Source of the DNA: a virus
IMG/VR virus record: IMGVR_UViG_3300043251_000023
Span: 9,544 to 73,543 of that record
DNA: 64,000 bases
Direction: 5' to 3' (one strand)
Program-made: the position numbers and the translations under genes
Notes under the pieces: model-generated
Seen by the model: only the letters and a program-made list of their open reading frames with translations
Told to the model about the DNA's origin: nothing
The model's database searches: none
In this document: piece by piece, positions 1,283 through 49,400 of the stretch
How positions within the stretch are numbered: the first letter of the stretch is position 1
Layout of the letters: the number at the start of each line of letters is the position of its first letter

Positions 1283-1573
1283 ATGGGAAATGTGATCCAC
1301 AAAACTGTGCCGATCCAAGTGTGGGCCGAGGTTGATGAAGGCATCGCCGACATGGTGCGCTATCTCAACACCATCCCAGGCGTCCGCACACATTCAAGCT
1401 GCCAGGGCACGATTGGTGAAGGCGGTCCCGAACCTTATCCGCCCTATGTCATGGTGACCTGGGATTCGGATGAAACACTCGCGCGGCTAAAAGCCGAGTT
1501 TGACATGAGCGACTGCGACGGCGAATGCGAAGGCCAATACGGCTGTGCTTCCCCTCGCACATCAACGAATTGA
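1283..1573 (+). CDS. TYW3-like (tRNA-wybutosine methyltransferase-like) small protein
   Basis: VDEGIADMVRYLNTIPGVRTHSSCQG resembles the D..I..L..LN....T.SSC.G motif of TYW3. Confidence 0.55.
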   Translation: MGNVIHKTVPIQVWAEVDEGIADMVRYLNTIPGVRTHSSCQGTIGEGGPEPYPPYVMVTWDSDETLARLKAEFDMSDCDGECEGQYGCASPRTSTN

Positions 1574-1579
1574 GGATTT

Positions 1580-1691
1580 GGGGATGAGTCCCGGACTGGT
1601 GAAAAATGACAGGCGGACCAGGAACGTGCGCGACGCCTCGCGCCAGCCGTCATTCGTAGTCGCTGGCTCCGTAACCCAGCCATCCCCGCCA
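1580..1691 (+). ncRNA. candidate tRNA-like structured RNA ending in GCCA
   Basis: 7-bp GGGGATG/CATCCCC stem followed by GCCA; adjacent 5-bp GCTGG/CCAGC arm; internal AATGAC/GTCATT and GCGCGA/TCGCGC stems. Confidence 0.5.
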
Positions 1692-1796
1692 GAAAAGAGA
1701 TCGCCGGCCACGAGGCCGGCGTCCCAGGTAACTCCTACAGCGTCCCGTAGGAAGCGGACACCCGTCGTCCGGGGCCGTATGTGGTGAGAACATAGC

Positions 1797-2054
1797 ATGA
1801 CGCCCGCCACCCTGCAACTCAGAGAAATGGCCCGTGCGATCCGGGAGGATCGGATTTCTAGAGGACTGTCCGTTGACAAATACTACGATCAGGTTCTTGG
1901 CCCTTATTTGGACGGACTTCAAGATCGAAGCGGCGGCAGATGTTCGGCAATGACCTACTACGACGGCAGACCGTTTCGGCAATGCCTCAGAGCGGTGAAA
2001 TCTGCCGGACTTTGCTACCAGCATCTGATGCTTCGACGTGAGGTTGACGGCTAA
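1797..2054 (+). CDS. hypothetical protein (C-x13-C-x8-C-x2-H putative Zn finger)
   Basis: RCSAM...QCLRAVKSAGLCYQH. Confidence 0.65.
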   Translation: MTPATLQLREMARAIREDRISRGLSVDKYYDQVLGPYLDGLQDRSGGRCSAMTYYDGRPFRQCLRAVKSAGLCYQHLMLRREVDG

Positions 2055-4183: not shown

Positions 4184-4789
4184 ATGATCGCCGCGCTCTT
4201 TGTCGAAACCAACGGATGCTACTTCGGCTTGCCGAACGTGGACCCGTGGGACGAGCAGAGAGACGCGCGGCACTACGCCGGCCCGCATCGCGTAGTTGCG
4301 CATCCCCCGTGCGAGCGCTGGGGACGCTATTGGGGCGGCGGCCCTAGCGCCAAGGTCAAGCGCATCAAGGGAAGCGACGGCGGCTGCTTTGGCGCAGCGC
4401 TCGCGTCTGTGCGTCGCTGGGGCGGCATCCTAGAGCATCCCGAAGCAAGCCATGCTTGGAGCCATTTTGGCCTGAATAAACCACCTCGTAAGGGCGGCTG
4501 GGTTGTTGCCGACTTCTGCGGCGGATGGACCTGCTGCGTTGAACAGGGGCACTACGGGCATCGAGCTCGCAAGGCAACATGGCTTTATGCAAATGGCATC
4601 GAATTGCCGTCGCTGCGCTGGGGATCGTGTGGACCGAAGGCGCGTCTAGATGGCGGCTGGCACCATGGCGATACCGAGCGATATGCCGGCCCGCGTTTAA
4701 AGGCCAACGAAACTGCCGCGACGCCAATCGAGTTTCGCGACTTGTTGCTTTCGATGGTTGCGCCGCTCGCAATGGCAAGAGCAGGCTAA
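4184..4789 (+). CDS. minimal C5-cytosine DNA methyltransferase-like protein
   Basis: VAHPPC catalytic-like motif, LEHP, and QGHYGHRARKATWLY. Confidence 0.65.
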   Translation: MIAALFVETNGCYFGLPNVDPWDEQRDARHYAGPHRVVAHPPCERWGRYWGGGPSAKVKRIKGSDGGCFGAALASVRRWGGILEHPEASHAWSHFGLNKPPRKGGWVVADFCGGWTCCVEQGHYGHRARKATWLYANGIELPSLRWGSCGPKARLDGGWHHGDTERYAGPRLKANETAATPIEFRDLLLSMVAPLAMARAG

Positions 4790-4807: not shown

Positions 4808-5086
4808 ATGACCGACATCCGACCACCCAATTACATTCCGACGCTCGATGAGGCGGTGCGCTACATTCGCAGCAATCCGGCTGTAGCATGGGAGATTTTG
4901 CGCGAGCAAATAGGTCTAGCCACAGAGGCCGAAGCCGTTTCCGATGGCCGCCTTCGTGAATTGTGGAAGCTCAACGGCGGCGCGGTTGGCAAAGGAAACC
5001 GCGCATGGATTGAGGTTGACCTGCTCCCGCGCCTTCTGCGCGAGGTTGTAAGCGCCGTCGTCCGGGCGGCAAGGCATGAGATTTAG
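4808..5086 (+). CDS. hypothetical protein
   Basis: Array ORF. Confidence 0.65.
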   Translation: MTDIRPPNYIPTLDEAVRYIRSNPAVAWEILREQIGLATEAEAVSDGRLRELWKLNGGAVGKGNRAWIEVDLLPRLLREVVSAVVRAARHEI

Positions 5087-5335: not shown

Positions 5336-5524
5336 ATGCGCTGCAAGATTGACGGTTGGCTTAACAATGACAACTGCACCGTCGCGTGCGAGTGCCACCT
5401 TGACCCACGCAACAATGGTCGGCAGGCAGGCCCCCTGATGGTCCGACACATCATCGACGGCCACGAGGTTCTGTTGCCGGCAGACGCGCAATTCGACCGC
5501 GATGATCTTGGCGGCACGTATTGA
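5336..5524 (+). CDS. hypothetical protein
   Basis: Array ORF. Confidence 0.55.
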   Translation: MRCKIDGWLNNDNCTVACECHLDPRNNGRQAGPLMVRHIIDGHEVLLPADAQFDRDDLGGTY

Positions 5525-6339
5525 AAACAGGCACAGTCAGGACGTTAATGCCCAGAATCGAGACCATAGGCGCCGCGACACTCTATCTCGGAGACTGCGG
5601 CGAGATATTGCCGACGCTCGACGGTATAGACATCGCCGTCACTAGCCCGCCCTACAATCTCGGCAGCGCGCCTTGGGCTCACCTGGGGCACTGGAAGCCC
5701 GGCAATGCGGCCGGCGCAGGGGGACGAGCAAAATGGAAATCGGGCGCCAGCAGCGACGGCGTCGCCTACGGCGAGCATGACGACACAATCCCATGGGCGG
5801 AATACGTCGCATGGCAGCAATCCATCGTGTCTCTGATCTGGGATGCGCTTGCCGATAACGGCGCGCTGTTTTTCAACCACAAGCCTCGCGTGATAGGCAC
5901 GAAACTGTGGACCCCTTTAGAGCTGATCCTGCCGCCGGCGGAGTTGCGCCAGATCATAGTGTGGTCGCGGCCGGGAGGAATGAACTACAGCCCAGCCTCG
6001 TTCGTACCCACGCATGAATGGATTTTATTGCTGGCAAAGCCTGCATTCCGCCTCAAGTCGAAGGGCGTTTCAGGCCTCGGCGACGTGTGGCCCATGCGCC
6101 CGGAAAAGAACGAGCATCCGGCGCCGTTCCCGATCGATCTTCCGGCGCGCGTGCTCGAAGCAACCGCGGGTAAGACCGTCCTTGATCCGTTCATGGGTTC
6201 TGGCACGACGGGCGTTGCCTGCGCCCGCACCGGCCGAAGGTTTATCGGCATCGAGAAAGACCGCCGCTGGTTTGATCTTGCCTGCGAGCGAATTGATCTG
6301 GCGTCACGTCAGCCCGACATGATTGCTGAAAACAGGCAC
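5522..6339 (+). repeat. 13-bp direct repeat TGAAAACAGGCAC flanking the methyltransferase
   Basis: Exact copies at 5522-5534 and 6327-6339. Confidence 0.85.
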
Positions 6340-6342
6340 TAA
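5548..6342 (+). CDS. N4-C/N6-A DNA methyltransferase (beta class)
   Basis: TSPPYN catalytic motif, HPAPFP, then VLDPFMGSGTTG SAM-binding motif. Confidence 0.92.
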   Translation: MPRIETIGAATLYLGDCGEILPTLDGIDIAVTSPPYNLGSAPWAHLGHWKPGNAAGAGGRAKWKSGASSDGVAYGEHDDTIPWAEYVAWQQSIVSLIWDALADNGALFFNHKPRVIGTKLWTPLELILPPAELRQIIVWSRPGGMNYSPASFVPTHEWILLLAKPAFRLKSKGVSGLGDVWPMRPEKNEHPAPFPIDLPARVLEATAGKTVLDPFMGSGTTGVACARTGRRFIGIEKDRRWFDLACERIDLASRQPDMIAENRH

Positions 6343-21279: not shown

Positions 21280-23201
21280 AAGCTGCCGGGATTTTGCTCG
21301 TATCGATGAATGGAAACGCTTTGTTTCTCCGGCGGACCGCGAGCGCGCCCGATTGCCCCGCGTGTTGGGATTTTCCCGGTGGCGGCCAAGAAGGCGACGA
21401 GACCGCCGAGCAGACCGCGATCCGCGAGACCCGCGAGGAGATCGGCCACGTCCCCGACGGCATCAGAATCCTCCACACCCGAACCCGATCCGGCTCCGCG
21501 CTGCAAGGCGTGGCTGGTCCCGGCGCGTCGCCGCTTGGCAACCCTGTTGACGGCGGCGCGCCGACGGCCCCTTCGATTGTCCCAGCGATGCCGGTCGATG
21601 TGGACTACACGACGTTCCTGCAAAAAGTGACGAACGAGTTCGTGCCGGAGCTCAACGACGAGCACGACGGCTACGCCTGGTCGCCGATCACGGCGCCGCC
21701 CGAACCGCTGCATCCCGGTTGCCGGATCGCGCTCGAGCGTCTGTCGATGGACGAACTCGACGTCGCGCGGGCGATGGTCGACGGTCGCCTCGTCTCGCCG
21801 CAACGCTATGAAAACGTGACTTTGTGGGCGATTCGCATAACCGGGACGGGTGGTTCGTTCCGGCCCAAGGTCGAGGAATTTGTCTACCGCGATGCCGACA
21901 TCCACCTGACCGAACGGATGCTGGCCCGCTGCAACGGCCTCCCGGTGATCTTCAAACACCCCGCCAAGGCGCTCCTGAACAGCGAGGAGTTCGCTAATCG
22001 TATTGTGGGGACCATTTTTTTGCCGTATGTTGCCGGCGATGAGGTCTGGGGCATCGCCAAAATCTACGACGATGAAACCAACCGGCTCTTAGACGAGGAG
22101 AACCTTTCCACCTCACCCGGCGTGAACTTCAAGGACTTCAAGGTCAATCGAAGTCTGCGCATGGAGGATGGTTCGAAGGTTCTCATCGAAGGCAAACCGA
22201 GTCTCGTCGACCACGTCGCGATTTGCGAGTTGGGCGTCTGGGACAAGGGCGGCGACCCGAGCGGCATTCGTTCCGAATCACGAGAGGACACAGCGATGGC
22301 TGACGAAGCGAAAAAGGAAGAGGCCAAGGACGATGCCGCGAAGAAGGATGCGGTCGCAGAGCAGCCCAAGATGGACGCCAAGAAAGACGCTGCCAAGGAC
22401 GACGCCGCCCGCAAGGACGCGGACGCCGGCAAGTCCTTAGACGAAAAGCTCTCCCACGTTCTCGATGCCGTCACCGGGTGCATGGACGCCGTGAAACGGG
22501 TCGACGCCCGGATGGACGCGATGGACGAGGAGAAGAAGAAAGCCGACGCGGCCAAGAAGGACGAGTTCCCGGACAAGAAGGAAGAAGCCGAAAAGACCGC
22601 CGCCGACAAGGCGAAGAAGGACGCGGCCGACAAGGAGGAGGAAGAAAAAAAGAAGGCCGACGCCGCCAAGAAAGACGAGGAAGACAAGGCGAAAGCCGAT
22701 ACCGCCGGTCTGGGCGACCGGATCGCCGCCGTCGAGCGCGCCGTCAAGGCGACCGACGCGAAGATCATGCCGATCCCGGACGACGATCATTCCCGCCTCG
22801 CCGACGCTTGGGCAATCGCTGACGATGCCTGCCGGGCGCTGGGGATGAACGGCCCGCGCGCGATGCCGGGCGAGACCTCCGCGCAGTTCCGGCGCCGGGT
22901 GGTCAAGCTCCTCAAGCCGCACAGCGCGACCTGGAAGGACGTCGACATCGCCACGGCCGCCTATGCCGACGAAGCGATGTTCGCCGTCGTCGAGAAGCAG
23001 GTCCTCACCGACGCTGCGAAGGCGGCGCGCGACCCGGCCAATGTCGCCGGCGACCAGCTCCGCATGATCGAGCGCAAGGCGGACGGCCACACGATTCGCG
23101 AGTTCGTCGGTCGGCCGGCTGCCTGGATGAACCAGTTTGCCGGGCCGGTTCAGCTCCGCGGCGAGGGCAAGTTCCTTACCGACAATCTCGGCAAGAACTG
23201 A
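21276..23201 (+). CDS. NUDIX hydrolase - DUF2213 prohead protease/scaffold fusion
   Basis: Nudix box GGQEGDETAEQTAIRETREEIG; GLPVIFKHP, STSPGV, DHVAIC; D/K/A-rich scaffold region. Confidence 0.85.
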   Translation: MKAAGILLVSMNGNALFLRRTASAPDCPACWDFPGGGQEGDETAEQTAIRETREEIGHVPDGIRILHTRTRSGSALQGVAGPGASPLGNPVDGGAPTAPSIVPAMPVDVDYTTFLQKVTNEFVPELNDEHDGYAWSPITAPPEPLHPGCRIALERLSMDELDVARAMVDGRLVSPQRYENVTLWAIRITGTGGSFRPKVEEFVYRDADIHLTERMLARCNGLPVIFKHPAKALLNSEEFANRIVGTIFLPYVAGDEVWGIAKIYDDETNRLLDEENLSTSPGVNFKDFKVNRSLRMEDGSKVLIEGKPSLVDHVAICELGVWDKGGDPSGIRSESREDTAMADEAKKEEAKDDAAKKDAVAEQPKMDAKKDAAKDDAARKDADAGKSLDEKLSHVLDAVTGCMDAVKRVDARMDAMDEEKKKADAAKKDEFPDKKEEAEKTAADKAKKDAADKEEEEKKKADAAKKDEEDKAKADTAGLGDRIAAVERAVKATDAKIMPIPDDDHSRLADAWAIADDACRALGMNGPRAMPGETSAQFRRRVVKLLKPHSATWKDVDIATAAYADEAMFAVVEKQVLTDAAKAARDPANVAGDQLRMIERKADGHTIREFVGRPAAWMNQFAGPVQLRGEGKFLTDNLGKN

Positions 23202-46132: not shown

Positions 46133-46459
46133 ATGGCAGCGACTCCCGTCACGCCGCAACCGGCGCTCAACTCTCAGGTCGCCGTCGGCGGAACCGCGGT
46201 GAATGTCTTCGGGCCGGCGCCGAATGGCGGCTATCTCCAGAACCCGGCGTCGGCAAACGATCAGGGCATCGGCGCTGCGGAAGACTTGATCGTCAATCCA
46301 GTCACCGCGGCAGTCGCGCCCGGCGTCGCCGGCGGCGTCAATGGAACGAACTTCCGCATCCCCCCCGGCGGGGGATGGAATCTCATCGCTGGACAGACGA
46401 CTCCTACTTCGATGAACGCGGCAACGTCGGGCCACAAGATAAGCGGCGTGTCTTATTGA
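46133..46459 (+). CDS. small virion protein, paralog of the 43020 N-domain
   Basis: GGYLQNP.S..DQG...AE.L.V...NAATSGHKISGV. Confidence 0.7.
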   Translation: MAATPVTPQPALNSQVAVGGTAVNVFGPAPNGGYLQNPASANDQGIGAAEDLIVNPVTAAVAPGVAGGVNGTNFRIPPGGGWNLIAGQTTPTSMNAATSGHKISGVSY

Positions 46460-46469
46460 GGAACGAAAA

Positions 46470-49400
46470 ATGCTGAATATCGCGCGCGCATTTGCGTTCC
46501 TTGCCGTCGTTGCATTCGGCGGTTCCGCCGTTGCACAACCTGGTCCGGGACAAAATAGCGGCCCGGTCCCACCGCCGTCGCCTTGGCTCTATGCGGCGCC
46601 GCAGATTTATCCCCCGACTGGATCTTGCGTGACGATGCCGCAGACCGTGCCAGGCGGCTGCCCGGGCGCAGGCAACGCGATCAACGTCTCTGGCGGCTAT
46701 TATCTTAACGGCGTTGCCCTTGATAGCATAAGCAGCGTCACGCCTCCTCTAAGTGTCAGCTCTGGAGTTCTCAGCATTCTCAATGGGACCTCCATTGCCA
46801 ATCCCGGTACGGGAACGCTTGAAGATTTAGTGCCATCGCAGACGATCACCGGAACCAGCAAAGTTTACGCCACGGTCGATCTCTGGAAGCGGACACGACG
46901 TTCCAATTCCGGAACGGCGATGACCGACACGCTACCGGCTTCTTCGGCAACGGGCATGGTCAATGGCGCCCGCATTGAGATCAAGAACGTGGATGCTTCG
47001 GCGACGGACACGGTCAGTGCCGGCGCCGGGACGACAATCATTGGCGGGGCATCCTTCTCGCTCCAGGCAGGCCGCGACCTAGAGTTGACCTATGACCTCG
47101 CAAACACGACGTGGCGAGCGGAGGCCAATACCGATACCGCGGCGCTCATCAATCAGCCGAACTTCTACAGCGCGGACAACTATTTTGGTTCGGGCCGTCC
47201 AGTGTGCGACCCGCGTGCAAAAGGGGCAGTTGGCAACGGGAGCACAGACGACAGCGCGGCGTTCAAGGCTTGCCGCGTGGCACTTGATGCTATTGGCGGC
47301 GGCGTTATCTATGTGCCGCCAGGGAATTACTGTCTAAAGACCGCCGACGCGAACAACGCGGTCATCGCAATTTCGGCAACGCCGATCACGGTCATCGGCG
47401 CCGGCATCAACGTCTCAAATCTATGGACCTGCGGTACCGACGTTACAATCGGTTACGCGAATATCGTTGGCGCCGGCTTCTTGAATTTGAGCTACCTGGG
47501 CAAAGGGGGTCAAGGTAACCCTAACGACACCACCTTTGGTGCTACGTCGCCAGCTTTCAAATTTGATACGTCATGCGGTATTTGTCGGATCAGTTACGTG
47601 CGCGGCTTTGGCGGCCTCTATGCTCTGCAAAACCTTGGCTTTGATAGCTGGGTATCGGACTTCTCATTCGGCTACACTTACGGCAACGCGATCATGTATG
47701 AGGCTGGCAACGGCCATCGGGTGGAACATGGCGCGCTGGATCAAAATTGGCCGGTCGTTCTGCCGAACCAAAATTCAGTCACGATCAGCGCGTGGCAAGC
47801 GACGCATTCCTACAGCGGCAACGGCGCTTCGAACACGAATGTCGTTTCGACGCAAGGCTACAATATTCAGCTTGTGAGTGCGAGTTGCACTAGCGGCGGT
47901 ACCGCGCCGCCCTTGAATAATTACGGAACTGTGATTGTGGATGGGTCCTGTTCCTGGCAACTCGTCGGCAACACGACCTATTACGGGGAGGATTGCGACG
48001 GGAATTGCGCCGAACTTATCCTGCATGGCGAGGTCGATCTGAATTGCGGCGGCTGCACATACGACTTCGCCATGACGAACAACAATGCTGGAACCGCCCC
48101 CAACGTTGTGACCGTCGACGGATCAAGCATCGGGCAGGCCATAATCGCACCTATCGGGCTGCTCGCCGGGTCAGGGTTTACGCTGTCGAACAGCCATATC
48201 GCGACCTCCGTACAGGGTGGGGCGTTGGGCCTATACGTCCCGGCAAGCGGCTTCACCGGGGACGCGTCCATTGTCGGCAATAGATTTAGCGGGGGCGGCG
48301 CGTGCATCGGAATTGGCACTGCGCCGTCTGGACAGGCCGGATATACGATAACCGCTAACCGGTTTTTAAGCTGTTCCCAGGCTATCGATTATTTCAATAC
48401 CGGGGCGGCGCTGCACATTACGGCCGGTCACAATACGATGGTCGGCGTCAGCAATGCGTGGGTGTCGCCCGCCGGCTCAAGCTATTACGAATTCACCAAT
48501 AACGATGTGGGTGGAGCGGCAGTCACCTTCACGAGTGGGGACGCCAACAAGAAGATCGCCGGCAACGACGGTTCGGCAACGCCTGTTAGTAACGGTGGCA
48601 CTGGTTTAGCTACATTGACAGCGCACGCGGTTCTGCTCGGCGAGGGCGCCGGTAACGTCGCCTTTGCCACCATCGGCACCGGTGGCAGGCTGTTGATCGA
48701 CCAGGGCGCGGTCGATCCCGTCTTCACCGCGATGAGCGGCGACGCCGCGCTGGCAGCGAGCGGCGCGCTAACGCTGGCGACAGTGAACGGCAACGTCGGC
48801 ACCTTCGGCGGCGCCAACGCCATCCCGAGCATCACCGTCAACGGCAAGGGCCTCGTCACCGCCGTCTCGACCGTGGCGCCGAACCCGACCCAGGTTAACG
48901 GCGTCTCCTTCGGCGCCGCACCGATCGGCACCAACACCGTCTGCGTTGCGACCAGCACCACTGCTTGCGCTTGGAGTTCGGTGCCGAACGCGGCGCTCGC
49001 CAACTCGACGATCTCGGGCGTCTCGCTCGGCGGCAGCCTCGCGGTGCTGAGCTACGGAACGCACCTGACCAACGGGGCCGGGGCCGGCTCCTACAACGGC
49101 TCCGCCGCGTCAACGCTCGCGACTGACGCGACCAACACCAACACGGCGTCGACCATCGTCGCCCGCGACGGCTCCGGCAACTTCTCCGCCGGGACAGTCA
49201 CGGCCAGCCTGACGGGGCACGCGTCACTGGACCTCGCGCTGACCGGGGGGGCGATGTCGGGCAACATCGCGATGGCCGGCAACTCGCTCACTGGAGCGAT
49301 GGGGCTGAACGGCGTCGAGACGATTCTCAGCGGCGGCAACATCGGCTTCGGCACCGAGACCAACCCGCAGGCGGCGTTCGTCTTCAGCGCGAACACCACG

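What the first reader, a model, noticed from the sequence alone, without database searches (positions are those of the whole stretch)
1283..1691. TYW3-like enzyme gene directly followed by a tRNA-like RNA ending in GCCA
Seen: 6 nt after the stop, 1580-1691 forms a 7-bp GGGGATG/CATCCCC acceptor-like stem with discriminator G and encoded CCA. A 5-bp arm (GCTGG/CCAGC, 9-nt loop) is stacked on it, giving a 12-bp minihelix. The anticodon arm is replaced by a long helix (AATGAC-A-GGC/GCC-GTCATT) enclosing a further hairpin. At 112 nt with no TTC loop it is not a canonical tRNA. Known: TYW3 methylates tRNA. Inference: a tRNA mimic/decoy paired with an RNA-modifying enzyme, possibly against anticodon nucleases or stress sensors.
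Basis: partly seen in the sequence, partly recalled or inferred. Interest (0 to 1): 0.7.

Follow-up and report, generated by a model that had tools for sequence, protein, structure and literature searches.

The report
Shared tRNA-like RNA module in phages
A 119-base stretch whose ends fold like the top half of a tRNA is real and is shared by two otherwise unrelated soil phages, but it is not tied to the neighbouring TYW3-like gene and its function is still unknown.

Summary
Window 1580-1691 has the 7-bp GGGGATG/CATCCCC stem, an abutting 5-bp hairpin and a 3' GCCA. Taken alone it is weak: fold z-score -1.42, no tRNA or tmRNA, no Rfam family, and the same motif turns up in 8.5% of simulated windows.

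Conservation makes it real. Window 1573-1691 recurs at 85% identity (E 8e-32) in a second complete phage genome, G001, 40.4 kb. That phage is otherwise unrelated, and flank identity is 22-23%. The shared block starts 7 nt before the stem (AGGATTT) and stops exactly at CCA. All 18 substitutions lie in the middle arm or the hairpin loop, and two base pairs change on both sides and stay paired.

The link to the TYW3-like gene fails. None of 15 homologue loci carries the element, and G001 has no homologue. The 96-aa protein is only a remote, half-size relative of TYW3.

Best reading (0.42): a promoter-less structured RNA module with tRNA/tmRNA-like ends, cut from the operon transcript by host tRNA-processing enzymes. 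Only two copies are known and there is no RNA data.

The parts
1283..1573 (+). Gene for a 96-aa protein (P0001). It is a remote, half-size relative of TYW3/Taw3 with the motif T-H-S-S-C-Q-G-T and an invariant Asp18. It is a neighbour of the element, not a part of it.
   Evidence: Translation. Pfam TYW3 20.8 bits against a cut-off of 27. Family profile against PDB: 2drv_A (PH1069), E 0.0021. AF2 model pLDDT 89.3. Foldseek top hits 2qg3/2it3, probability 0.97/0.93, E 0.11-0.12. VIA Z 5.0-5.5. 200 cluster representatives at E <= 0.001.
1573..1579 (+). Conserved 5' leader AGGATTT. It forms the 5' edge of the shared block, has U at -1 to -3 and A at -4 relative to the stem, and also reads as a Shine-Dalgarno-like AGGA.
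   Evidence: Identical in both phages, while the 60 nt upstream are 13 of 60 identical.
1580..1586 (+). 5' strand of the 7-bp acceptor-like stem (GGGGATG).
   Evidence: Pairs with 1681-1687. Invariant in both copies. Pair probability 0.92-1.0 in isolation for the window's copy (0.66-1.0 for G001's).
1587..1604 (+). 18 nt that are fully conserved (AGTCCCGGACTGGTGAAA). RNAalifold places a small hairpin AGUC-CCG-GACU at 1587-1597.
   Evidence: 0 substitutions. Hairpin. No covariation is possible because the segment is invariant.
1605..1654 (+). Variable long arm (35 of 50 identical) enclosing the hairpin at 1628-1643. Two alternative pairings are compatible with the data.
Evidence: RNAalifold arm 37-82: all pairs kept, with changes on both sides at 45/74 and 51/62.
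1628..1643 (+). Inner hairpin GCGCGA-CGCC-TCGCGC.
   Evidence: G-C becomes A-U on both sides at pair 51/62. Pair probability 0.7-0.96.
1662..1680 (+). T-arm-like hairpin GCTGG / 9-nt loop / CCAGC, stacked on the acceptor-like stem.
   Evidence: Stems invariant, and 3 of the 9 loop positions changed. ViennaRNA gives it only P 0.02-0.09.
1681..1691 (+). 3' strand of the stem (CATCCCC), then G and CCA. This is the 3' edge of the shared block.
   Evidence: Identical in both phages. The 60 nt downstream are 14 of 60 identical.
1702..1721 (.). 8-bp all-G/C hairpin 10 nt after the CCA. It looks like a terminator only on the minus strand (followed by ATCTCTTTTC). It is absent from the second phage and so is not part of the shared unit.
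   Evidence: Alignment.
1797..2054 (+). Next gene (85 aa, no family). It is unrelated to the gene that follows the element in the second phage.

Best explanation
Window 1573-1691 is a discrete, promoter-less structured-RNA module that phages exchange horizontally. It lies in the sense orientation inside an operon of small genes.

Its two ends pair into a 7-bp acceptor-like stem. A 5-bp hairpin can stack on that stem to give a 12-bp tRNA/tmRNA-type minihelix, followed by G-CCA. The anticodon arm is replaced by a long, sequence-variable arm.

Inferred mechanism: the module is cut out of the polycistronic transcript by the host's tRNA-processing enzymes. RNase P would cut between U1579 and G1580, and an endonuclease plus 3' trimming would bring the 3' end back to CCA1691. 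The product would be a stable RNA of about 112 nt that works with host factors, because the two phages share no protein.

Shown: the unit is discrete and conserved, its boundaries coincide with the stem ends, its substitutions preserve structure, and it is independent of the TYW3-like gene.

Inferred: that it is transcribed and processed, that the RNA is stable, and everything about its target.
For: 1. The 119 nt are 101 of 119 identical (E 8e-32) between two complete phage genomes with terminal repeats, 73.5 kb and 40.4 kb. Apart from this block the two genomes share only one 82-nt coding match.
2. Identity by segment: leader plus 5' part 32 of 32, middle 35 of 50, positions 76-87 12 of 12, hairpin loop 6 of 9, 3' end 16 of 16. 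Flanks are 13 of 60 and 14 of 60. The shared block therefore begins 7 nt before the stem and ends exactly at CCA.
3. The only '7-bp stem + 5-bp hairpin + NCCA' site in the 64-kb window coincides with the only homology island.
4. In the RNAalifold consensus all 32 pairs are kept in both copies, and two pairs change on both sides. G-U pairs appear only when the + strand is read. The minus strand folds no better than shuffles, z 0.10.
5. In the + strand ORF that starts at the conserved ATG, substitutions fall 6/10/2 by codon position, with 2 synonymous and 16 non-synonymous. The block is not conserved as that protein.
6. In both phages the element points the same way as the real flanking genes: P0001 and the MmcB-like gene in the window, and the DUF6948 gene in G001.
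7. The flanking genes are unrelated between the two phages, so any partner must come from the host.
8. RNase P is known to process non-tRNA phage RNAs, namely the C4 antisense RNA of P1/P7 and M3 RNA (passages of PMC11143913). An RCCA 3' end is part of its substrate recognition (abstract of PMC12710915, as listed).
Against: - Only two copies are known, so covariation rests on two pairs. The shuffle control is not significant: 112 of 500 shuffles reach the observed value.
- Folding energy is ordinary, z -1.42 and -0.74.
- ViennaRNA gives the T-like hairpin P 0.02-0.09, because four conserved CUGG/CCAG words allow other pairings. With 60 nt of flank on each side, the G001 acceptor stem is not predicted at all.
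- There is no TPsiC-type loop, and no tRNA, tmRNA or other Rfam model matches even at E <= 10.
- A stop codon lies 6 nt upstream in the window, so terminating ribosomes would unwind the stem.
- The antisense frame is open in both copies and takes 8 of the 18 substitutions as synonymous (P 0.083).
Confidence: 0.42

Rival explanations
1. A cis-acting mRNA element with no stable product. The folded block would act only inside the operon transcript, as an RNase P or RNase E processing site, a stabiliser, a translational-coupling device that hides the AGGA/AUG, or a put-like signal acting on host RNA polymerase. It would tune expression of whatever gene lies next to it.
For: - It lies in the sense orientation between genes in both phages, and no promoter is included in the shared block.
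- The conserved AGGA-N7-AUG has its AUG buried in the stem.
- In the window a strong G/C hairpin follows 10 nt downstream.
- The two phages share no protein partner.
Against: - The neighbouring genes on both sides are unrelated in the two phages.
- The distance to the next start codon is 105 nt in one phage and 16 nt in the other.
- This reading leaves the exact end of the block at NCCA, after a 7-bp terminal stem, as a coincidence.
Confidence: 0.2
2. A DNA-level site: a recombination hot spot or exchange boundary, a protein-binding site, or a single-strand initiation or origin structure. The hairpins would matter as DNA, or not at all.
For: - One copy per genome.
- Block boundaries are sharp.
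- 61 positions are perfectly conserved, including segments predicted to be unpaired.
- Thermodynamic support for one particular RNA fold is weak.
Against: - No tyrosine integrase in either phage: PF00589 hits 0 of 2, while the controls ring in 14 of 14.
- No target-site duplication or long terminal inverted repeat is visible in the sequence.
- Changes on both sides of pairs, and G-U-type changes that work on one strand only, point to a single-stranded nucleic acid read from the + strand.
- No similar host sequence turned up. 0 of 401 genomes of one class matched. 7 of 401 genomes of one phylum gave only short G/C-rich matches to the variable middle.
Confidence: 0.13
3. The start of a small gene on the minus strand: ATG at 1683 reading leftwards, MAGLR.QRLR..AG.RRRARSWS....SPVRDSSPNP.
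For: - The frame is open in both phages and the ATG is conserved.
- Substitutions fall 6/2/10 by codon position.
- 8 of 18 are synonymous against 5.1 expected (P 0.083).
Against: - This is not significant once the three open frames are taken into account.
- There is no ribosome-binding site.
- Homology stops in the middle of the ORF, and the 42-50-aa tails are unrelated and run antisense through the upstream genes.
- In the window a terminator-like hairpin sits 10 nt upstream of this ATG on that strand.
- The peptide is arginine-rich, as is typical of spurious frames in G/C-rich DNA.
- All verified neighbouring genes are on the other strand.
Confidence: 0.08
4. One reading: the RNA is a tRNA mimic that works together with the adjacent TYW3-like enzyme, as its substrate or as a decoy made effective by modification.
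For: - The two are adjacent in this one genome, 6 nt apart.
- The protein has a remote TYW3-type relationship.
- One homologue locus (L015) has a real tRNA-Met 136 nt downstream.
Against: - 0 of 15 homologue loci carry the element.
- The second phage carries the element but no homologue.
- The protein family has 200 cluster representatives, while six exact-word scans of the virus collection found only two copies of the element.
- TYW3 acts on position 37 of an anticodon loop (PMC2034487 passages), and the element has no such loop.
Confidence: 0.03
5. A small protein on the + strand, starting at ATG 1584 (67 aa here, 37 aa in the second phage).
For: A conserved AGGA lies 7 nt before a conserved ATG. 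The frame is open in both copies, and in the window it fills the gap between the two genes.
Against: Only 2 substitutions are synonymous and 16 are not, with 10 at the second codon position. The replacements are radical (R to G, D to V, Q to L). The C-termini differ completely. No relative was found by tblastn in the virus collection or in cultured phages.
Confidence: 0.03

Closest known systems
tRNA-like domain of tmRNA (including the reduced mitochondrial tmRNAs that consist of little else)
   Same: The layout matches. A 7-bp acceptor stem made from the two ends, a single-stranded D-loop analogue (18 nt here), a long helix in place of the anticodon arm, a 5-bp T-type arm stacked on the acceptor, then NCCA.
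   Different: - No G3-U70 pair (G3-C70 here), and the discriminator is G rather than A.
- The loop is 9 nt with no GGUUCGA-type sequence, and there is no tag reading frame.
- ARAGORN finds no tmRNA, and no tmRNA model matches at E <= 10.
- Three acidobacterial tmRNAs fetched for comparison share none of the element's conserved words.
- The mitochondrial form is known to me only from the abstract of PMC3590771 as listed, and from recall.
Non-tRNA RNase P substrates of phages: C4 antisense RNA of P1/P7 and phage M3 RNA; also, from recall, the stable 'species 1 and 2' RNAs of T4
   Same: These are small phage RNAs released from a longer transcript because a stem plus an RCCA-type end mimics the top of a tRNA. 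They have no anticodon function.
   Different: - There is no sequence relation.
- C4 pairs with a target in its own operon, whereas I found no complementarity above chance between the element and either phage genome.
- Processing of this element has not been tested.
- Sources: passages of PMC11143913. The T4 RNAs are recalled and were not checked.
Canonical tRNA
   Same: A 7/5 acceptor and T-stem stack, a discriminator base and an encoded CCA.
   Different: It is 112 nt long, has no anticodon arm, no 7-nt TPsiC loop and no D-arm of normal size. ARAGORN finds nothing, and no RF00005 match appears even at E <= 10.
TYW3/Taw3 SAM-dependent tRNA methyltransferases (for the neighbouring protein only)
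   Same: An N-terminal Asp and a T-x-S-S-C-x-G motif line up with the catalytic centre of PH1069. TYW3-family structures are the top Foldseek hits.
   Different: - 96 aa against about 200.
- The motif arginine is replaced by Thr43.
- No equivalent of the invariant histidine was identified.
- The Pfam score is below the cut-off.
- The VIA Z of 5.0-5.5 is tied with unrelated ferredoxin-like domains.

Membership tests
tRNA | Cloverleaf recognised by tRNA detectors | tested here: not met
   ARAGORN finds 0 genes in the window and 0 in the whole 73.5-kb genome. No RF00005 match at E <= 10 over 1450-1900.
tRNA | 7-bp acceptor stem stacked on a 5-bp T stem, then discriminator and CCA | tested here: met
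   Read directly from the sequence and invariant in both copies. However, the T-like hairpin has a low predicted pair probability, 0.02-0.09.
tRNA | 7-nt T loop with a TPsiC-type sequence, and a 7-nt anticodon loop | tested here: not met
   The loop is 9 nt, CTCCGTAAC in one copy and CGTCGTAAA in the other. The inner loop is CGCC or TCGCCT.
tmRNA | Detected by tmRNA models; G3-U70 alanine identity pair; tag reading frame | tested here: not met
   ARAGORN finds no tmRNA. No tmRNA family matches at E <= 10. Pair 3/70 is G-C. No tag frame is present. Only the domain layout resembles tmRNA.
RNase P substrate (non-tRNA class) | Cleavage by RNase P at the 5' end of the stem | not testable with these tools
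   No RNA run holds this sequence. An in vitro assay would be needed.
RNase P substrate (non-tRNA class) | RCCA at the 3' end after a terminal helix | tested here: met
   GCCA at 1688-1691 directly follows the 7-bp stem and is conserved in both copies. The criterion comes from the abstract of PMC12710915 (listing).
Any described RNA family (Rfam 15) | Score at or above a family's gathering threshold | tested here: not met
   0 matches in the window. At E <= 10 there are 5 weak matches in 1450-1900, none covering the element on the + strand. The nearest are NEAT1_1 at 1676-1785 (E 3.1) and a snoRNA model on the minus strand (E 8.8).
TYW3/Taw3 (protein P0001) | Signature motif (S/T)xSSCxGR (PMC5311493, passages) | tested here: not met
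   P0001 has T36-H-S-S-C-Q-G-T43, so the arginine is replaced by Thr. The family consensus is RTxASCQGTxGEGG, and T36, S39, C40 and G42 are at least 90% conserved.
TYW3/Taw3 (protein P0001) | Invariant N-terminal aspartate | tested here: met
   D18 is the only invariant column among 78 family members. It aligns with the Asp of the EVDEDI segment of 2drv_A.
TYW3/Taw3 (protein P0001) | Invariant histidine at the end of RAGNYA strand 3 | tested here: inconclusive
   No conserved His follows the motif in the aligned stretch. The family has a nearly invariant H6, and a common 'HP' near the C-terminus that P0001 itself lacks. Structural equivalence was not examined residue by residue.
TYW3/Taw3 (protein P0001) | Pfam PF02676 at or above the gathering score; about 200 aa with N-terminal extension, SHS2 insert and RAGNYA domain | tested here: not met
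   20.8 bits against 27, matching profile positions 22-50 of 211 only. The protein is 96 aa. The domain scheme comes from PMC2034487 and PMC5311493 (passages).
TYW3/Taw3 (protein P0001) | Shared fold | tested here: inconclusive
   Foldseek ranks 2qg3_A and 2it3_B first (probability 0.97/0.93, E 0.11/0.12, TM on query 0.54/0.51). VIA gives Z 5.0-5.5, rmsd 3.2-3.9 over 84-85 aligned residues, tied with PulL/XcpY domains at Z 5.7-6.2.

The most novel reading that the evidence does not exclude
The element is a mobile 'acceptor-end decoy' with no promoter of its own. Host RNase P and 3' trimming would release a non-chargeable minihelix RNA of the tRNA/tmRNA-domain type (G3-C70, G73, CCA). This RNA would soak up, or mislead, a host factor that reads or modifies tRNA 3' ends. 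Candidates are defence toxins that add nucleotides to the CCA end or pyrophosphorylate it, or SmpB, EF-Tu or RNase P itself. The variable arm would tune stability or specificity. Because the RNA would need only host enzymes, unrelated phages of the same host range could pick it up as a stand-alone cassette. The toxin classes named here are recalled, not taken from any call.
Probability: 0.08. Interest if true: 0.8.

Novelty: new variant of a known kind. Interest (0 to 1): 0.5.

Why it matters
If the RNA is made and processed as proposed, it would be a new family of tRNA-like small RNAs in phages of uncultured soil bacteria. It would move between unrelated phages as a 119-nt cassette with no promoter and no protein partner. 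That would make it a compact example of an RNA 'moron' that relies entirely on the host's tRNA-processing machinery, and a candidate counter-measure against defences that act on tRNA ends.

It also corrects a tempting inference. Adjacency to a TYW3-like gene in a single genome is not a functional link.

The small TYW3-like proteins are themselves an uncharacterised family. The family has 200 cluster representatives. They keep the Asp and the SSCxG part of the TYW3 catalytic centre at half the size.

Tried and rejected
Searches for further copies of the element all came back empty.
- Virus collection: six exact-word or gapped scans. One search returned 47 loci, of which 46 share only the 16-mer. 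One search returned 3 loci, of which 2 are coding chance matches.
- Metagenome contigs: a gapped pattern gave 0. A 19-mer gave 9 loci, and all 9 share only the word.
- blastn against cultured phages and plasmids: no match.
- Prokaryote genomes: 0 of 401 in one class. 7 of 401 in one phylum, all short G/C-rich matches to the variable middle, on either strand. A 22-nt match in G002 was judged chance.
The next best hit is window 46196-46312, 17.2 bits, E 0.15.

Other lines that gave nothing:
- Relatives of the downstream 85-aa gene and of the + strand ORF: none.
- Antisense targets: the longest complementary words to either phage genome are 11-12 nt, within the range of shuffles. Two collinear words in G001 have no pairing between them.
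- Expression: no RNA holder listed. The two runs that hold the DNA may be the source samples.
- A SorX-like match on the minus strand at 1696-1759 (18.1 bits against 46.6) is noise built on the hairpin.
- Pfam on ten long fused homologues of P0001: no families.
- The first 9.5 kb of the phage genome, which lie outside the window, were covered by blast and ARAGORN but not by the covariance model.
Full report
**What the window is.** The window is bases 9544-73543 of a 73,543-bp virus record (G000) with 127-bp direct terminal repeats and 60.5% G+C. The finding lies in a run of small + strand genes. These include P0001 (1283-1573), an 85-aa ORF (1797-2054) and an MmcB-like gene (2081-2566; PF06319 26.5 bits, phrog_5429 E 2.8e-15).

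**The observation.**
- The stop codon is at 1571-1573 and a 6-nt gap follows.
- GGGGATG (1580-1586) pairs with CATCCCC (1681-1687).
- GCTGG (1662-1666) pairs with CCAGC (1676-1680) around a 9-nt loop, directly abutting the stem.
- G1688 and CCA 1689-1691 close the element.
- The helix AATGAC-A-GGC / GCC-GTCATT encloses a GCGCGA/TCGCGC hairpin.

Taken alone this is not remarkable.
- ARAGORN finds no tRNA or tmRNA in the window or in the whole genome.
- Rfam has no match at gathering thresholds, and nothing covers the element on the + strand at E <= 10.
- The MFE of -43.5 kcal/mol has z -1.42, and 20 of 200 shuffles fold at least as well. The minus strand has z 0.10.
- A scan I wrote for '7-bp Watson-Crick stem, abutting 5-bp hairpin with a 7-9 nt loop, NCCA' finds only this site in the window. 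In 200 first-order Markov simulations of the window, 8.5% contained at least one such site (mean 0.105).

**Conservation changes the picture.** An exact 22-mer scan of the virus collection found one other contig. This is G001, a complete 40,412-bp phage genome with terminal repeats and 56% G+C.
- blastn between the two genomes gives just two matches. One is window 1573-1691 against G001 22529-22647, 101 of 119 identical, no gaps, E 8e-32. The other is an 82-nt, 74% identical stretch inside a long gene, where the differences sit mostly at every third base.
- tblastx adds nothing beyond scattered low-scoring hits.
- By segment, the 7-nt leader plus element positions 1-25 are 32 of 32 identical. 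Positions 26-75 are 35 of 50, 76-87 are 12 of 12, the hairpin loop 88-96 is 6 of 9, and 97-112 are 16 of 16.
- The 60 nt upstream are 13 of 60 identical and the 60 nt downstream 14 of 60, which is random level.

The shared block thus begins at AGGATTT, 7 nt before the stem, and ends exactly at CCA. If the 30% divergence of the middle were neutral, 61 unchanged positions would have probability about 4e-10. The one minihelix-type site in 64 kb coincides with the one homology island. The terminal stem is therefore a property of the conserved unit, not a chance overlay.

**RNA, DNA or protein?**

On structure:
Three cells of the long helix break.
- Sliding the partners by 1-3 columns drops pairing to 26-48%. 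The column-shuffle control is not significant, with 112 of 500 shuffles reaching the observed value. With only two sequences this is expected.
- RNAalifold proposes a cloverleaf-like alternative in which all 32 pairs hold in both copies. It has the acceptor at 1-7/102-108, a hairpin at 8-11/15-18, a long irregular arm at 37-82 containing hairpin 49-53/60-64, and the T-like arm at 83-87/97-101. Pairs 45/74 and 51/62 change on both sides.
- The two arm models cannot be separated with two sequences. The acceptor stem, the inner hairpin and the T-like hairpin are common to both.
- The single-side changes make G-U pairs on the + strand. On the minus strand they would be A-C mismatches.

On thermodynamics, support is mixed.
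- The acceptor stem has probability 0.66-1.0 in isolation.
- The inner hairpin has 0.7-0.96.
- The T-like hairpin has only 0.02-0.09, because four conserved CUGG/CCAG words offer competing pairings.
- Structures with the minihelix enforced lie 1.0-2.7 kcal/mol above the MFE.
- With 60 nt of flank on each side, the G001 stem is not predicted.

On coding:
- The + strand ORF that starts at the conserved AGGA-N7-ATG is 67 aa here and 37 aa in G001. Its substitutions fall 6/10/2 by codon position, with 2 synonymous and 16 not. It is not conserved as a protein.
- One minus-strand frame is open in both copies and takes 8 of the 18 substitutions as synonymous, against 5.1 expected (P 0.083). This is not significant across three open frames.
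- That minus-strand frame lacks a ribosome-binding site. Homology ends mid-ORF, and the tails run antisense through real genes. I keep it as a minor rival.

**Context.**
- In both phages the element points the same way as the verified neighbouring genes. These are P0001 and the MmcB-like gene here, and a DUF6948 gene (E 7.9e-20) in G001.
- The genes before and after it are unrelated between the phages, and the spacing to the next start is 105 nt against 16 nt.
- Neither phage has a tyrosine integrase: PF00589 hits 0 of 2, and the controls ring in 14 of 14.
- No target-site duplication is visible.
- No complementarity to either phage genome exceeds shuffles.
- The 8-bp G/C hairpin at 1702-1721 looks like a terminator only on the minus strand, and it is absent from G001.

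**The link to the TYW3-like gene.**
- P0001 has 15 fetched homologue loci, 2 in genome contigs and 13 in viral contigs, at 46-68% identity. One of them, L001, lies in the unpublished genome G002.
- Their downstream sequences all differ, and most run straight into another gene.
- Model R1 scores nothing there better than E 2.8.
- Two of the 15 loci hold a tRNA. L015 has tRNA-Met 136 nt after the homologue, and L014 has tRNA-Gln on the other strand. This is not a pattern.
- G001 has the element but no P0001 homologue at E <= 1.
- The pairing is therefore an accident of this one genome.

**The protein.**
- Pfam TYW3 matches residues 16-44 at 20.8 bits, below the cut-off of 27.
- A search of 1.84 billion cluster representatives finds 200 relatives at E <= 0.001 and 133 at E <= 1e-10. 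Most are 85-130 aa.
- A profile of 78 of them hits PH1069 (2drv_A, a TYW3/Taw3-family structure) at E 0.0021 over 45 residues. It aligns Asp18 and the T-x-S-S-C-x-G motif.
- The AF2 model is confident, pLDDT 89.3 and pTM 0.77.
- Foldseek ranks TYW3-like structures first (2qg3_A probability 0.97, E 0.11; 2it3_B probability 0.93, E 0.12).
- VIA gives them Z 5.0-5.5 over 84-85 residues, tied with unrelated PulL/XcpY domains at Z 5.7-6.2.
- TYW3 is defined by (S/T)xSSCxGR, an invariant Asp and an invariant His, in a protein of about 200 aa built from an N-terminal extension, an SHS2 insert and a RAGNYA domain (passages of PMC5311493 and PMC2034487).
- P0001 keeps the Asp and the SSCxG part. It lacks the arginine (Thr43) and half the length.
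- It is a remote, miniature relative of unknown activity, not a TYW3.

**How it most likely works.** The features that set the unit's limits are a terminal 7-bp helix, G-CCA at the exact 3' edge, and a conserved U-rich leader (U at -1 to -3, A at -4). These are the features that tRNA-processing enzymes read. RNase P is known to process non-tRNA phage RNAs such as the C4 RNA of P1/P7 and M3 RNA (passages of PMC11143913), and it uses an RCCA 3' motif (abstract of PMC12710915 in the listing). RNase E cuts just after encoded CCA in tRNA operons (abstract of PMC2190699, same listing), and in both phages the bases after the CCA are A/U-rich. The leader preferences of RNase P are recalled, not checked.

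I therefore propose that the module is excised from the operon transcript as a stable RNA of about 112 nt. Its layout resembles the tRNA-like domain of tmRNA, but it lacks the alanine identity pair and the canonical loops. Because the phages share no protein, its partner must be a host factor. Everything beyond the anatomy and the conservation is inference.

**Limits.** Only two copies are known despite extensive searching (see Tried and rejected). No RNA data exist. Supplementary files of the cited papers were not available.

Noticed in passing
window 1702-1721: An 8-bp all-G/C hairpin that reads as an intrinsic terminator only on the minus strand (followed by ATCTCTTTTC), although the verified neighbouring genes are on the + strand. 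A weak SorX-like match (18.1 bits against 46.6) rests on it. It is not conserved in the second phage.
   Followed up: partly
L015 3427-3500: One P0001 homologue locus has a real tRNA-Met(cat) 136 nt after the homologue's stop. L014 has a tRNA-Gln on the other strand, 4983-5054. So 2 of the 15 loci hold a tRNA.
   Followed up: no
window 1596-1599, 1618-1621, 1663-1666, 1676-1679: Four fully conserved CUGG/CCAG words allow two mutually exclusive pairing schemes, and possibly a pseudoknot between 1596-1600 and 1617-1621. This could be a conformational switch. No covariation is available because all four words are invariant.
   Followed up: partly
window 1444-1683, minus strand: The antisense frame through the element is open in both phages, and 8 of the 18 substitutions are synonymous in it (P 0.083). 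The tails beyond the shared block are unrelated.
   Followed up: yes
window 46196-46312: A weak full-length match to the covariance model built from the two copies (17.2 bits, E 0.15 over 194 kb). It lies in a gap between long ORFs and has several mismatched pairs, so it is probably chance.
   Followed up: partly
window 49091-49172: This is the only other DNA similarity to the second phage: 82 nt, 74% identical, inside a 1229-aa ORF, with differences mostly at every third base. It is probably a shared tail-fibre-type peptide motif.
   Followed up: no
window 4184-4789 and 5521-6342: The 201-aa ORF matches phrog_12600 (unknown function) at E 6.5e-63. The 273-aa ORF contains TSPPY, which I recall as a DNA methyltransferase motif. 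This was not tested.
   Followed up: no
P0014, P0045, P0110 (proteins): Some relatives of the small TYW3-like domain sit inside predicted proteins of 350-760 aa, with no Pfam family on the remainder. These could be true fusions or over-called ORFs in G/C-rich DNA.
   Followed up: partly
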